From positions 56,048,001-56,112,000 of the forward strand of contig OY740790.1 in NCBI GenBank assembly GCA_963514005.1: DNA of 64,000 bases. Reading direction: 5' to 3'. This stretch comes from Raja brachyura (Eukaryota). Within the stretch, counting starts at the first letter, position 1. Every line of letters starts with the position of its first letter. Position numbers: made by a program. Shown here piece by piece: positions 42,001 to 48,000 of this stretch.

Positions 42001-45000
42001 ACCGAACTAAAATAGAATTAAAGCCCGGTAAGTATTGGGTGCAAGGGCTGCTTTCCCCATTCAATAATTCCCCTCTGCTTTTGCTAAGGCTGCTCCCTGC
42101 TGTGATATTTGTTCCTAACAGTGAAGTGCATCATTCTTGTTCTTATCTCAGAATGATTGGGAATTGATGCAAACCTGGGACACAAGCCATGCAAGCGATA
42201 ACACAGAAGGTCGACGTGGAACATCATAAAACTGCTGAACACCAATTCTTGCTGACTGTTAACTGGATGTTCTCTTTCAATAAATCCCTTGCGCTGACCC
42301 TATGCTCTATCTTCTCCTTATCTGCCCCTAACTAACTCTCGGAAGCTGTGAAATATTGTACTTCAGTGATACCCATCTTTTCATTCCAAAACACGACACG
42401 CACTGATAAATCCAAGGGCAATGTGCTTTCATAATTATTCTATTATGTTCTCGGAGCCTGACATGGATTGTCCATGTATTCTGCTCTCTCTGCTTCAAGA
42501 AACTATGATAAACGGATCACTTTCTCTGGCTGACAGCTATTGCCTAACACCAAAAACAAGAACTGATTAGAGCACACTTCCTCGGGTATGTTCTGCGTTT
42601 TTTTTCCCTGCCTTCTTTAACTATTCCTCAGGAGGCCTTGGAATGCAGAGTAATGACCTAATCAGGGATAAAGGGTCATTGTGCCCTCTCGCTGTGATGA
42701 CAAAGACAGAGTAGAATTGGAATAATTTTATCTATTGTCGCATTACTGCCGCTAAAAAGAAATTTGAATTCACAGGTCATTTTCTGTTAATGTGCCACTG
42801 AAGTATGATATTTTAGTTTCAGTGCTGCAATCAATAAGGAGCCCAAAACTACATAAGATGTTCATTGTGTCTATATTTCAAGCTCGGTGTCTCTTTGGGG
42901 GAGGGGACTCAACATACAGCTAAAATAATTTGATTTAAATGTACATCATTTTGTGCAGTAGAACATCTCAATAAGTATGTTTAATTCTGCCTTGAACAGA
43001 GAATTAGATAAATTCTGCCGAACAGAGACTAAACTAAAAATCATTAAATTCACAGGGTTTTGTGAATTGTGAACGGACCTCACTCTGAAAACAAAAATAA
43101 GCAATTAATTTACGCCTGCCGCAACCTCTTCGAAAATATAGCTTGTATGGTTTAAATATTTGGAAATAAATCCTAAGGATACTTCCTGCCATATATCTTT
43201 ACAGAATTGCAATCACCATGGTAATGGCTGAGAAACTATTTTACCCAGTTACTGTGAAGAGTAATATTTGTAAGATTTCATCGATCTGTCAGCTGCCATA
43301 AGCATAAGTTTTATTTTGCATTTATGATAATACCAAAGCCAAAGATATTATAACGACAATGAAAATGTTGTAACATTCAGTGAACGCTCTCCGATGGCAA
43401 CTCAACTATATGGCTTCAGAACAAACTGAACAGCTCGCTGTCTGAAAGGTTTTACATTGCCCCCTTTAAGGATTGTCTCCAGATTAACTGATATTTATTA
43501 ATTGATGCAACACTGAGGCTAAGAGGCAGCATAATGTCTAGCAAGGAATTGTGGATGCTGGTTTGAACCGAAGATAGACACAAATAGCTGGAGAAACTCA
43601 GCGGATCAGATAGCATCTCTGGATAAAAGGAATAGGTGACGTTTCAGGTCGAGGCCCTTCTTGTGTCTTTTGGTGTCTATCTTCAGCATAATGTAGTGTA
43701 GGTCAGGTTTAGAAGAGAGTCTGAATGAATTATCACAGATGTGCGGGAAGGACCTGCTTCCTTAAACAGAGGATTGAGCAACTTGAAGGCTAGATCTAAA
43801 ATGATTCATAGAAGGTAGAGAGAGAGAGATAAGAAAAATGTTTACACCCGGGGCTAGTGGGGGGCCTGCAAAGGGGTTGGTACAGGCCAGAACCTCACAG
43901 AAACTTGGAAACATAGAAAATAGGTGCAGGAGTGGGCCATTCAGCTCTCTCTTTTTTATTCTTAAAAAAAAAAAAAAATTATTAGAAGCAATTGTACAAG
44001 AATAAGACGACCGACAACAGTTATACAATTATTGTACAGCTTCATTTTTAACCTTATAACCTAAATTTAAAAAAAAAAGAAAAAAGAAAAAAAAAGAAAA
44101 CAAAGAAAGAAGAAAAAAAAGTAAAATACAAAAGTGCAGGAAAAAGACCCCTAAGCCACCAAAAAAATCCAACTCTCTCTTGAAAACATCCAGTGAATTG
44201 GCCTCAACTGCCTTCTGTGGCAGAGAATTCCACAGAATCACAACTCTCTGGATGAAATGTTTTTCCTCATCTCAGTCCTAAATGCCCTACCCCTTATTCT
44301 TAAACTGTGACCCCTGGTTCTGGACTCCCCCAACATTGTGAACATTTTTCCTGCATCTAGCCTGTCCAATCCCTTAAGAATTTTATATCTCTGAAACTCT
44401 GATCTTGTGTTCTTCTGGTGTGCGGGGTTTTTCTATTTGCGCAAAAATGGCACACGATAGCACTACGATTTTTCACCAGGTTACTCACCGTTCTCCTGTG
44501 CTGTGAGTGCAGCAAGTTTCGTTCCAATCGGTGGTATATTGCAAAAAGTTATCGAGATTTAAAAATCTTAAAAAGCGCGCGTGCGCAGATTCCTTCAGTC
44601 AGCACCATGCAGATTGGTCTCTTCTCCTGTTAGTCAATGCCACAGCCTGGATGGCGATGCCCCTTACTGCCCCATTGGTGGCGGCCTGTCCTGCCTCACT
44701 CACAAACTCCTCTCTCCCCTCCTCACTGTAACTTGTCTATCATCTTCCCTACCATCTGCAGTGGCCACAGGGCAGGTTCAGTGGAGGCCCTGGTCCCTTC
44801 TCTCTCTCCCTCATCACTCACCCCTCTCCCCTGCCCGCCTTCTGCGGCAATGGCGGTCCCGTCTACCCGTCCCCCCGGGTCCGTCTCTTCTGCCGCCGCC
44901 GGTGCGGTAACTCACCCTTGGAGGAGATCTTGGAGGAGATCTTCGCCACCAGCTCATCGAAACTCATGGTGCCCACCATGACGAACACCGACTCCATCCC

Positions 45001-48000
45001 CCCCACCTCTCTCCCTCGCGCCCGGAGGCGGGAGTGAGCAGGCAGGCCGGTAGGCGGGTGGGCAAGGGCGAGGACGGACTGAGCGGCAGCAGCGGTCGGA
45101 CAGGACGGGGACGGGCCGAGCGGCAACTGAGTCGGAGTGGGCAGAGGGAGGGAGGGAGAGTCGGGTTGCAGGGTGGCCGAGCAGTTTGCGCGGGGTTTGA
45201 GTAACTCACACACACACACACCCACACACACACACACAATACAAACTGGTCCAATTTCAAGTCAACGGGATCTAAAGCACAGCTAACAATGAATGACCTG
45301 TGGAGGAAGGAACTGCAGATGCTGCTTTTTATGGGTGGAGGGAGGGAGTGACTGAGGGTAGGGGAAAGGAGAGGGAGGGAGAGGTGACAGAGGGATTGGG
45401 GGAGGGGAGGAGGAGATGGGAAAGATCGTGGGGAGGTGAGGAAGAAGATGGGGGGGTTGAGGGAGAGGAAGGGGTAGGGAGGGAGAGAGGGGTAGTGGGG
45501 GAAGTGAGGAGACTGGGGGAGGAGTGGAAATAGAGGGAGAGGAGGGCAGTGGGGGAGGTGAGGAGTGGGGGAGGTGGGGGATAGTAGGGGGTAGGGAGGG
45601 GAAAGATCGAGGGAGGGAATAACAGGGTAGGGAAAAGGAGAAGGAGGGAGAGGTGAGGGAGGGATTGGGGGAGGGGAGGAGGAGAGGGGAAAGAAGAGGG
45701 AGGGTTAAGAGGAGAGGGAGCGAGTGCTGGGGATTGAGGGGAAATGAGCCATGCCTGCGCAGTTTGGGTCTATGCGTGAGTGGTGCATTATTGCGTTGGG
45801 AGGACGGGTAACATTGGGGGAACGGGTGAGTGGTGGAATATTGCATTGGGGAACGGGTTGCGTTGGGGGACCAGGCCTCCCATGTGACAAGGACCCAACT
45901 TAGTCTAGTGTTTCTATAAGATCCCCTCTCATCCTTCTAAATTTCAGTGAATACAAACCAGTGAATACAAAATTCCAGTGAATCAGAAAGAAGCAGTATT
46001 TTGAGGTGCTTGTGAAGAAACCTGGACCTGGTTTTGGAAGGTAGCATAGACATGATAGGCTGTCTTTATTGGCTTAGTTTAGAGATACAACATTGAAACA
46101 GCCCTTCAGCCCACTGAGCCTATGCTGACCACCGATCTCCCGTTCACACTAATTCTATGTTATCGCAGTTCCTCATCCACTCACTACACCCTAGCAATTT
46201 ACGGAGGCCAATTAACTTACTAACCAGAGCACCCAGAGGAAGCCCATTAGTCACAGGGAGAACATACAGACTCCACACAGACAGTACCCGAGGTCAGGAT
46301 TGAATCCGGGTCTCTGGTGCTGTGAGGCAGCAGCACTACTGGCGATGTGAGTTTATATATGGTCAGTGATTTATATGATGCCAAGTTTGTGAAATCAGTG
46401 TCTGGACTGAATCAGTAAGTGGATTTTAATCAACTATGACTGTTTTTGTTTTGTTAGCTCGTACCTTATCCCTTACGGATTTGAAGCCATTCTTTTCATT
46501 GAGCCAAAGTGTGATAGTGTACAGGACTCAAGCAGGCCTTTCCAACTCCCCCAGGTTCTACCACTCACCAACCAGGGGCAATTTGCAGGGGTCAATTAAT
46601 CTACTAATCCACACTTACTTTGGTATGTGGGAGGAAACTGGAGAACTTTGATTTTTTTCTATTTAGCAGGTTTTCCGTAAACTATTTCTGCCTCTTAACA
46701 TCGAGAGTAAGGCTGAACCATATGTAGAAACACAATAATTTGTAAACAAAGCACTGTGTGTGATCATGTTGTGATTTCTATTAGATAACTGTTCATGTAG
46801 TGTTTGCTGTTAACTAAATCTGGCTCATTACTCAGTTTAGTTTAGTTTAATAGTGATACATTGCGGAAACAGGCCCTTCAGCCAACCGAGACTGCACCAT
46901 CCAGCGATCTCAGTACACTTTCACTATCTGACACACTAGGGACAATTGACAAGTTTTTACTGAAGCCAATTAACCTACAAACATATACATTTTTGGAGTG
47001 TGGGAGGATGTACGATCTCCATGCAGACAGCACCTGTAGTCAGGATTGAACATGGGTCTCTGGAGCTGCAAGGCAGCAACTCCACCGCTGTACCACAGTG
47101 CTGCCCAAAATCGAATACTCTAAATCTTAAGGGCCCATTTGTCTGTTGGTTCAAAATGGTGCTATTTTCAGGAGTGGACAGACCATGGGTTTCATCTGCA
47201 CATTTTGCATGGTAGCTGGGCAGAAGACATTTGAGAAAGCATTTAATTGCAAGAACACAAGGAAATAGAAACAGGAGTAGGGAACTAGGCCCCTCAAACC
47301 TGATCTGCCAATTAATATGATCATGGTTGATCCTATTCTCTGCCAATCCTCCATAATACACATTACTTGATCTTTTAAATATTTATCTATCTCCATCATG
47401 ACTATTTCTGATGATCTAGCCCTTACTATCTTCTGGGATGGAGAATTCCATGAATACTGGGATTTGTAAATAGAGGCAGTAAATAAAAACATAAAGAAGT
47501 CATAATAACCTTTTTTCAAATGACAAATGTTACAACTGAGTATTATTAACAATTTTGAACCAGACATTTTAAGAAGGATGCTGAAGCCTTGGGGAAGGTA
47601 GTACAATTTTACCAGGATAAGACCAGCCAAAAGCAAGATACTATATGTTGAAGTGATTAGAAAGGTCATCCTCGTGGTCCTTAAGGCAGAGAAGTTTAAG
47701 GGGACATTTGGTAGAGGTATTCAAAATAATGAGTGTGATTTTGACAAATAAAAGGAATATCCAGAGAGCATAATTTAAAAAGATAACTTCTAATTGAGGG
47801 GAAATGAGGAGAATTATTTTCATGTATAGAGTCGTGGGAGACAACTACCCAAAGGTGTGGTAGATGCAGAATCCACTGGATCTTTATAAAGGCAATTGGA
47901 TGTGAAGGAAACTAATTGGCAGAGTTGAAGAGGGAAACGTTGGGGCATGGGAGTAACTTGGACTAGTCCTTCAAAGAGTTACATAAATTTGAGTAAATTG

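What the first reader, a model, noticed from the sequence alone, without database searches (positions are those of the whole stretch)
44388..45908. Helitron-like element that has captured the first exon and splice donor of the glycosylation gene ALG13
Seen: the element starts TC, ends CTAG and splits a CR1 exactly between A and T with no TSD or TIR. It carries a CpG-rich antisense segment encoding MESVFV(T/M)VGT(T/M)SFDELV... followed by GTGAGT. Known: TC...CTRR ends with A|T insertion define rolling-circle Helitrons, which capture host gene fragments (well documented in maize and vesper bats). VFVTVGTT.FD.L is the N-terminal signature of ALG13, the UDP-GlcNAc transferase subunit. Inference: this is a Helitron family amplifying a housekeeping gene's 5' end in a cartilaginous fish. 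I know of no report of this but cannot check the literature.
Basis: partly seen in the sequence, partly recalled or inferred. Interest (0 to 1): 0.9.

Follow-up and report, generated by a model that had tools for sequence, protein, structure and literature searches.

The report
Skate Helitron carrying ALG13 first exon
A mobile element with the end signatures of a rolling-circle Helitron, in a skate-like genome, carries the CpG-rich upstream region, first coding exon and splice donor of the housekeeping gene ALG13 in two decayed copies, much as bat Helitrons carry the start of NUBPL.

Summary
Copy A (44388-45908, + strand) starts TC, ends CTAG and lies between A and T. Four other copies of the split host repeat in the window run straight across that point, so the insertion is precise and has no target-site duplication. 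I found no terminal or subterminal inverted repeat.

Copy B (36740-38033) is 86% identical to A. It ends at the same CTAG|T in a different flank. Its 5' end is masked.

The antisense peptide is ALG13 exon 1. Copy B matches little skate ALG13 at 21 of 22 residues by BLASTP and 24 of 28 by tblastn. The match stops at a GTGAGT donor. The window has no other ALG13 exon.

Both exon copies are damaged, so this is not the alg13 locus.

Against a textbook Helitron:
- Neither copy has a 3' palindrome.
- The window has no RepHel gene.
- Genome-wide copy number could not be measured.

The closest precedent is HelibatN3, which carries the NUBPL promoter, first exon and donor (PMC4224331, PMC4778049). This is therefore a new member of a known kind. 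I found no paper describing such a capture in cartilaginous fishes.

The parts
44388..45908 (+). Copy A, the whole element (1521 nt). 5' TC at 44388-44389, 3' CTAG at 45905-45908.
   Evidence: precise insertion into a host repeat, shown by 4 empty copies of that repeat in the window.
44916..44997 (-). alg13 exon-1-derived segment of copy A (82 nt). It has two Thr-to-Met changes and a 12-bp tandem duplication at 44917-44943.
   Evidence: 18 of 23 residues identical to little skate ALG13 residues 1-23.
44910..44915 (-). GTGAGT splice-donor motif directly after the exon segment of copy A.
   Evidence: Homology to ALG13 ends here.
44998..45200 (-). CpG-rich stretch upstream of the ATG. Inferred to be the alg13 5'UTR and promoter region.
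   Evidence: GC up to 0.72, CpG observed/expected 0.72-0.78. Promoter function is inferred, not tested.
44388..44909 (+). Left part of the element. It holds the 5' terminal sequence and, in alg13 sense, what would be captured intron 1. The border between the two is unknown.
   Evidence: 83% identical to copy B. CpG observed/expected 1.27 over 44388-44587.
45207..45238 (.). (CA)16 microsatellite inside the element.
45429..45720 (.). G/A-rich tandem repeats (periods 16-54). About 270 nt longer in copy A than in copy B.
45776..45870 (+). 50-nt unit repeated 1.9 times, just before the 3' end. Conserved in copy B.
36740..38033 (+). Copy B. Its first readable base is 36740, because the 5' end lies under the N run 36583-36739. 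A second N run covers 37504-37650. It ends AAGTCTAG|T.
   Evidence: 86.4% identity to copy A over 1147 sites, K2P 0.152.
37231..37311 (-). alg13 exon-1-derived segment of copy B (81 nt, 27 codons, in-frame TAG at codon 23).
   Evidence: 21 of 22 (BLASTP) and 24 of 28 (tblastn) identical to little skate ALG13.
37225..37230 (-). GTGAGT donor motif of copy B.
44167..44387 (+). Left half of the host repeat split by copy A.
45909..45960 (+). Right half of the host repeat, followed by its 14-bp tandem tail (45939-45983).

Best explanation
This is a non-autonomous Helitron-type (rolling-circle) transposon. It carries a piece of genomic DNA from the 5' end of the host's own alg13 gene, in antisense orientation: CpG-rich upstream sequence, the first coding exon (27 codons), the splice donor and probably part of intron 1.

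Shown:
- The element's boundaries, its precise insertion at A|T without target-site duplication, and its TC and CTAG ends.
- A second copy, inserted independently, with the same 3' end.
- The identity of the exon, and the end of homology at the donor.

Inferred:
- A RepHel transposase encoded elsewhere in the genome nicked at the 5' TC, peeled off one strand and ended at CTAG.
- The alg13 fragment entered an ancestor of the family through end bypass (read-through) or a similar capture event.
- The present 3' end, which has no palindrome, may be a replacement end made in such an event.
- When young, the captured promoter and donor could have driven chimeric transcripts, as the NUBPL cassette of HelibatN3 does. 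The two copies here are old (15% apart) and their exon copies are damaged.
For: - Ends and target: A|TC...CTAG|T. Chance of about 7e-5 by my arithmetic.
- No target-site duplication: in 3 of 4 paralogous empty sites the flank alignments abut exactly. In the fourth one mismatched base lies between them.
- No terminal inverted repeat: 10 of 30 positions match.
- Copy B shares the 3' end to the last base, then diverges into an AT-rich flank with 17 of 20 bases A or T. Helraiser prefers AT-rich DNA next to its 3' end (PMC4778049, passage).
- ALG13: 3 of 7 candidates passed the search, and all three are named ALG13 of a shark, a skate and a shark, with Pfam PF04101.
- BLASTP gives 21 of 22 identical, E 3e-12, for copy B and 18 of 23, E 8e-10, for copy A.
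- tblastn finds only residues 1-28 in the window.
- At all 4 positions where the skate protein differs from both sharks (17, 20, 25, 26), copy B has the skate residue.
- CpG-rich upstream sequence.
- Precedent: HelibatN3 carries the NUBPL promoter, 5'UTR, first exon and part of intron 1. Gene 5' ends are the fragments bat Helitrons capture most often (PMC4224331, passages; PMC4778049, passages).
- In Helraiser experiments, new 3' ends made by read-through or truncation had no palindrome in their last 30 bp (PMC4778049, passage).
Against: - No 3' palindrome. There are 0 perfect stems of 5 bp or more (loop 3-12) in the last 120 nt of either copy. The last 79 nt of copy A fold no better than shuffles: -6.6 against -9.7 +/- 2.1 kcal/mol, and 185 of 200 shuffles fold at least as well.
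- No RepHel or PIF1-type helicase domain in 106 ORFs of 90 aa or more.
- Only one 5' end can be read, because copy B's is masked.
- Only two copies were seen, 7.6 kb apart.
- Genome-wide copy number, shared 5' ends and an autonomous partner could not be tested, because no collection open here holds this organism's genome.
- On their own, the database-wide E-values of the ALG13 hits are 1.1-7.8. The Pfam match of the 22-residue peptide is below the cut-off at 12.7 bits, E 0.13. Significance comes from the pairwise and window-level comparisons.
Confidence: 0.75

Rival explanations
1. This is an insertion by some route other than a Helitron: filler DNA copied into a repaired double-strand break, or an unclassified transposon that makes no target-site duplication. 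The TC, CTAG and A|T features would then be coincidence.
For: No 3' palindrome. No RepHel in the window. Only two copies seen.
Against: Two insertions in unrelated flanks end at the same base, CTAG|T. Filler DNA would not repeat that. All four end and target features together have a chance of about 7e-5 (my arithmetic).
Confidence: 0.13
2. This is a Helentron or Helitron2-type element, the kind reported as widespread in fish, rather than a canonical Helitron.
For: Helentron proteins are reported in many fish families (PMC4067079, passages). The element holds central tandem repeats and a microsatellite, as some non-autonomous Helentron relatives do.
Against: The target is A|T, or T|G if the boundary is shifted by one base, and not TT. 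No subterminal inverted repeat: the best 12-mer match of the reverse-complemented 5' end in the last 300 nt has 4 mismatches. No 3' stem-loop.
Confidence: 0.06
3. The two copies are real or duplicated first exons of the alg13 locus itself, and not cargo of a mobile element.
For: Two copies in the same orientation lie 7.6 kb apart, each with a CpG-rich upstream stretch and a donor.
Against: Copy A sits precisely inside an interspersed repeat. Copy B has an in-frame stop. Copy A has a 12-bp duplication and an exon of 82 nt instead of 81. No other ALG13 exon occurs in the 64 kb; the best other tblastn hit has E 0.42. The 3' flanks of the two copies are unrelated.
Confidence: 0.03

Closest known systems
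HelibatN3 of vesper bats (NUBPL capture)
   Same: A non-autonomous Helitron whose cargo is a host gene's promoter, 5'UTR, first coding exon, splice donor and part of intron 1 (PMC4224331; PMC4778049; passages read).
   Different: A different gene (alg13) and a different host (skate-like cartilaginous fish). The cargo is antisense to the element. No 3' palindrome was found. Copy number and transcription are unknown here. HelibatN3 has about a thousand copies and has been shown to trap exons.
Helibat1 / Helraiser (canonical animal Helitron)
   Same: 5'-TC and CTAG-3' ends, joined to A and T of an AT target, with no target-site duplication (PMC4778049).
   Different: Helraiser has a 19-bp palindrome 11 nt before its 3' end and encodes RepHel. 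This element has neither.
Helentrons and their non-autonomous relatives (HINEs, DINE-1)
   Same: Rolling-circle-type elements reported from many fish. Some hold central tandem repeats and can capture gene fragments (PMC4067079).
   Different: They insert at TT and have 13-bp subterminal inverted repeats and a 3' stem-loop. None of these was found here.
Maize Helitrons carrying gene fragments
   Same: Capture of unspliced genomic gene pieces, with introns (mentioned in PMC4778049).
   Different: Maize elements often carry pieces of several genes. Only one gene fragment was recognised here.

Membership tests
Canonical Helitron | 5' end TC | tested here: met
   Copy A starts TCTCTG at 44388. Copy B's 5' end is masked and stayed unchecked.
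Canonical Helitron | 3' end CTRR | tested here: met
   CTAG in 2 of 2 copies, at 45905-45908 and 38030-38033.
Canonical Helitron | Insertion between A and T | tested here: met
   Copy A lies in TTATA|TGTTTC. Copy B has T after its 3' end, and its 5' side is masked. The boundary has a one-base ambiguity.
Canonical Helitron | No target-site duplication | tested here: met
   Four paralogous empty sites. Three abut exactly and the fourth has one mismatched base between the flank alignments. These sites are paralogous, not orthologous.
Canonical Helitron | No terminal inverted repeats | tested here: met
   10 of 30 positions match. None of the 25 inverted pairs shown, of 78 found, involves an end.
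Canonical Helitron | Palindrome of 16-20 nt about 11 nt before the 3' end | tested here: not met
   0 stems of 5 bp or more in the last 120 nt of either copy. The fold gives z = +1.45. This feature is present in 'the vast majority' of families, not all. New 3' ends made by read-through lack it (PMC4778049).
Canonical Helitron | Autonomous partner that encodes RepHel and shares the ends | not testable with these tools
   None in the window: 0 of 106 ORFs. No eukaryotic genome collection was available.
Canonical Helitron | Many dispersed copies sharing both ends | tested here: inconclusive
   Two copies share the 3' end. Only one 5' end can be read. The genome was not searchable.
Helentron / HINE | TT target, subterminal inverted repeats, 3' stem-loop | tested here: not met
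ALG13 (Glyco_tran_28_C, PF04101): origin of the cargo | Match to the N-terminus of named ALG13 proteins, starting at Met1 | tested here: met
   21 of 22 and 24 of 28 residues identical to little skate ALG13. The Pfam match covers profile positions 2-19 of 166, at E 0.13, below the cut-off.
ALG13: a working gene copy | Open exon 1 followed by the other exons | tested here: not met
   Stop at codon 23 in copy B. Duplication and frame change in copy A. No further exons in the window.
Retrocopy or LINE-mediated insertion | Spliced sequence, poly(A) or LINE tail, target-site duplication | tested here: not met
   Homology stops at an unspliced GTGAGT. There is no target-site duplication and no A-tail at either end.

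The most novel reading that the evidence does not exclude
A canonical-type Helitron family in skates independently did what HelibatN3 did in bats. It picked up a housekeeping gene's CpG-island promoter, first exon and splice donor, and spread this portable 'promoter plus exon trap' through the genome, seeding chimeric transcripts. That would make it a second, convergent vertebrate case, in a lineage whose Helitrons have not been described in any detail. It would support the idea that gene 5' ends help Helitrons amplify.
Probability: 0.3. Interest if true: 0.6.

Novelty: new member of a known kind. Interest (0 to 1): 0.4.

Why it matters
Helitron capture of promoters and first exons has been documented in depth in one vertebrate group, the vesper bats. 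There it spread thousands of potential promoters and produced new transcripts. A matching case in a cartilaginous fish would show that the pattern is a general property of Helitrons and not peculiar to bats. It would give skate genome annotators a reason to expect false 'ALG13-like' first exons. It would also point to an undescribed canonical-type Helitron family in a group where the fish literature I read reports mainly Helentrons. The two copies seen here are old and damaged, so any direct effect on present-day genes is unproven.

Tried and rejected
Searches that led nowhere:
- PDB sequence search with the 22-residue peptide: 0 matches at E up to 10.
- First word-index protein search at E up to 1: 7 candidates, none passed. 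Repeating it at E up to 10 gave the three ALG13 hits.
- Full HMMER scan of 1.84 billion representatives with the 42-residue reading: 3 hits, of 1785, 3975 and 3921 aa, with 16, 3 and 8 matched stretches. Each match lies in or includes the low-complexity upstream read-through (query positions 1-23, 16-35, 16-37). None is of ALG13 size. I did not examine them further.
- Rfam over the whole window: 0 families. The element is therefore not a recognisable derivative of any described RNA family.
- Full-text search for short pieces of the peptide: 0 papers.

Pfam scan of ORFs:
- 106 of the 115 ORFs of 90 aa or more were scanned.
- Nine were dropped first. Eight overlap N runs. One, 37729-38049 (-), was left out by oversight.
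- Only ALKBH8_N at 35093-35470 (-) passed its cut-off. DUF6107 scored below its cut-off.

Readings considered and rejected:
- The gene took its first exon from the element, not the other way round. Rejected because the same N-terminus is present in two sharks.
- The CpG island has stayed unmethylated. Not supported: both copies keep 21 of 37 CpG sites in the island and 12 of 36 elsewhere, while non-CpG identity is 0.875-0.90. CpG decays faster than other sites in every part.
- A segmental duplication made the two copies. Rejected because their 3' flanks are unrelated, and the left flank of copy A has no match near copy B.

Left out or not possible:
Only the single exon was compared.
- The window is not taken for human.
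Full report
**Observation.**
Copy A spans 44388-45908 on the + strand. It begins TCTCTG and ends GTCTAG, with A before it and T after it.

Its flanks are the two halves of one interspersed repeat, about 44167-44387 plus 45909-45960. Four further copies of that repeat lie in the window. BLAST alignments of the left and right flanks abut exactly in 3 of 4 (61889/61890, 22240/22239, 33502/33501). In the fourth (11420/11422) one mismatched base separates them. 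The joined flanks read TTATA|TGTTTC, as the intact copies do.

The insertion is therefore precise and has no target-site duplication. The boundary is ambiguous by one base, because the element's first base and the base after it are both T.

The ends are not inverted repeats: 10 of 30 positions match. None of the 25 inverted pairs shown, of 78 found, involves a terminus. With the window's base composition, A + TC...CTRR + T at arbitrary boundaries has a chance of about 7e-5 (my arithmetic).

**Second copy.**
Copy B runs from 36740, its first readable base, to 38033 on the same strand.
- It is 86.4% identical to copy A over 1147 aligned sites (94 transitions, 62 transversions, K2P 0.152).
- The alignment holds to the last base of CTAG and the following T, then stops. 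The flank of B is unrelated to that of A and is AT-rich.
- The left flank of A has no match near B. The two copies are therefore separate insertions, not a duplicated block.
- B's 5' end lies under an N run (36583-36739), and a second N run (37504-37650) covers part of its middle.
- No other copy or fragment is in the window.

**The cargo.**
On the minus strand copy A reads MESVFVMVGTMSFDELVAKISSKISSK and then GTGAGT (exon part 44916-44997, donor 44915-44910). Copy B reads MESVFVTVGTTSFDELVEKISS*KAVR and then GTGAGT (37231-37311, donor 37230-37225).

Pfam gave only a sub-threshold match of the B peptide to Glyco_tran_28_C: E 0.13, 12.7 bits, profile positions 2-19 of 166. It gave nothing for A.

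The decisive result came from the word-index protein search. Of 7 candidates, 3 passed at E up to 10. All three are named ALG13: Heterodontus francisci, Leucoraja erinacea and Heptranchias. Their database-wide E-values (1.1-7.8) are weak because the match is only 22 residues long.

The pairwise and window-level comparisons are stronger:
- Copy B against the little skate protein: 21 of 22 identical, E 3e-12.
- Copy A against the same protein: 18 of 23 identical, E 8e-10.
- tblastn of the three proteins on the window finds only residues 1-28. Identity to B is 24 of 28 for the skate, 19 of 28 for Heterodontus and 20 of 28 for Heptranchias. The next best hit has E 0.42.
- At the 4 positions where the skate protein differs from both sharks (17, 20, 25, 26), copy B has the skate residue each time. 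This fits a capture within the skate lineage and a skate-like source genome.

Homology ends exactly at the GTGAGT, after Arg27. The captured DNA was therefore genomic, carrying its intron border, and not a cDNA. Only this single exon was searched.

Upstream of the ATG, in gene sense, the sequence is CpG-rich. GC is 0.58-0.72 and CpG observed/expected is 0.72-0.78 in 200-nt windows starting 44788-45088, against 0.43 and 0.40 for the whole window. This fits a CpG-island promoter and 5'UTR, but promoter activity is inferred only.

**Not the real gene.**
- Copy B has an in-frame TAG at codon 23.
- Copy A has two Thr-to-Met changes, which are ACG-to-ATG CpG transitions. It also has a 12-bp tandem duplication (44917-44943) that makes the exon 82 nt long instead of 81.
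- No other ALG13 exon lies in the 64 kb.
- Copy A sits inside a repeat.

**What else is in the element.**
- A (CA)16 run, G/A-rich tandem repeats that are about 270 nt longer in A than in B, and a 50-nt unit repeated 1.9 times before the 3' end.
- No Rfam family anywhere in the window.
- No protein family in the element's ORFs of 90 aa or more.

**Tests against the Helitron definition.**
The canonical definition, from passages of PMC4067079 and PMC4778049, is:
- 5' TC and 3' CTRR ends;
- a 16-20-nt palindrome about 11 nt from the 3' end;
- insertion between A and T;
- no target-site duplication and no inverted repeats;
- a RepHel transposase in autonomous members.

Five sequence features are met. 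The palindrome is not. Neither copy has a perfect stem of 5 bp or more (loop 3-12) in its last 120 nt. The last 79 nt of A fold at -6.6 kcal/mol, against -9.7 +/- 2.1 for shuffles.

This weakens the classification but does not exclude it. In the Helraiser experiments, deleting the hairpin reduced transposition without abolishing it. New 3' ends created by read-through or truncation had no palindrome in their last 30 bp (PMC4778049). Such read-through is also the proposed route of gene capture. A cargo-bearing subfamily with a replacement 3' end is therefore a coherent reading, though an inferred one.

No RepHel gene is in the window: 0 of 106 ORFs scanned, out of 115 listed. Nine were dropped, eight for N runs and one by oversight.

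Helentron features are not met: TT target, subterminal inverted repeats, 3' stem-loop.

**Comparison with what is known.**
HelibatN3 of Myotis carries the promoter, 5'UTR, first exon and part of the first intron of NUBPL in about a thousand copies. Bat Helitrons capture gene 5' ends more often than other gene parts. Promoters of 15 genes reached 4,690 copies (PMC4224331, passages). The NUBPL cassette acts as an exon trap in cells and drives some bat transcripts (PMC4778049, passages). The element here has the same layout with a different gene and host.

**Literature.**
- Helitron + ALG13: 0 papers.
- Helitron + skate, whole words: 0 papers.
- Helitron + elasmobranch: 9 papers listed. Among the five I opened by passage, the only relevant statement is that repeat annotation of the whale shark genome includes the Helitron superfamily (PMC8455134). 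The other four I saw only as listing entries.
- Helitron + cartilaginous + transposable elements: 23 papers, of which 22 were listed. None has a title or abstract start describing Helitron gene capture in these fishes.
- Supplements were closed, so lists of captured genes or repeat libraries could not be checked.

I therefore found no report of this case. The library does not cover subscription journals or repeat databases.

**Verdict.**
This is most likely a non-autonomous Helitron-type element with an alg13 5' cassette (confidence 0.75). It is a new member of a known kind, of moderate interest.

Still open:
- copy number;
- the 5' end in other copies;
- the autonomous partner;
- the extent of the captured DNA;
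- any transcription from it.

Noticed in passing
window 36740-38033 and 44388-45908: The only two copies in 64 kb lie 7.6 kb apart in the same orientation, yet they are 15% diverged and have unrelated flanks. I have no explanation. The family may be very abundant, it may prefer local or regional targets, or this may be chance.
   Followed up: partly
window 45296-45328; compare 39849-39740 (-), 54262-54316 and 43535-43662: About 33 nt inside the element (around ...GGAAGGAACTGCAGATGCTG...) match the start of a short interspersed repeat of about 110-125 nt. That repeat has at least 11 copies in the window. It may be a fragment of that repeat carried inside the element.
   Followed up: partly
window 44388-44640: The left end of the element is also CpG-rich (observed/expected 1.27 over 44388-44587). 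By eye it holds several CCAAT/ATTGG-like motifs and a GCGCGCGTGCGC stretch. It could be the part of the alg13 CpG island that extends into intron 1, or a second promoter-like piece. The motif reading is by eye only.
   Followed up: no
window 35093-35470 (-): An ORF with an ALKBH8_N domain (E 4e-11). From recall, this domain often sits at the C-terminal end of LINE reverse-transcriptase proteins. It is the only Pfam family above its cut-off in the window's ORFs of 90 aa or more.
   Followed up: no
window 44167-44387 + 45909-45983, and copies near 11210-11472, 22214-22460, 33454-33667, 61697-61940: The host repeat has variable left starts, a common right end and a 14-bp tandem tail.
   Followed up: partly
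window 36583-36739 and 37504-37650: The two N runs of the window both fall on copy B. One covers its 5' end. The other covers the part that aligns with the (CA)n region of copy A. Both were left as they are, so B's 5' terminus could not be compared.
   Followed up: no
window 45429-45720 versus 37800-37830: The G/A-rich tandem array is about 270 nt longer in copy A than in copy B. The internal satellite has expanded or contracted since insertion.
   Followed up: no
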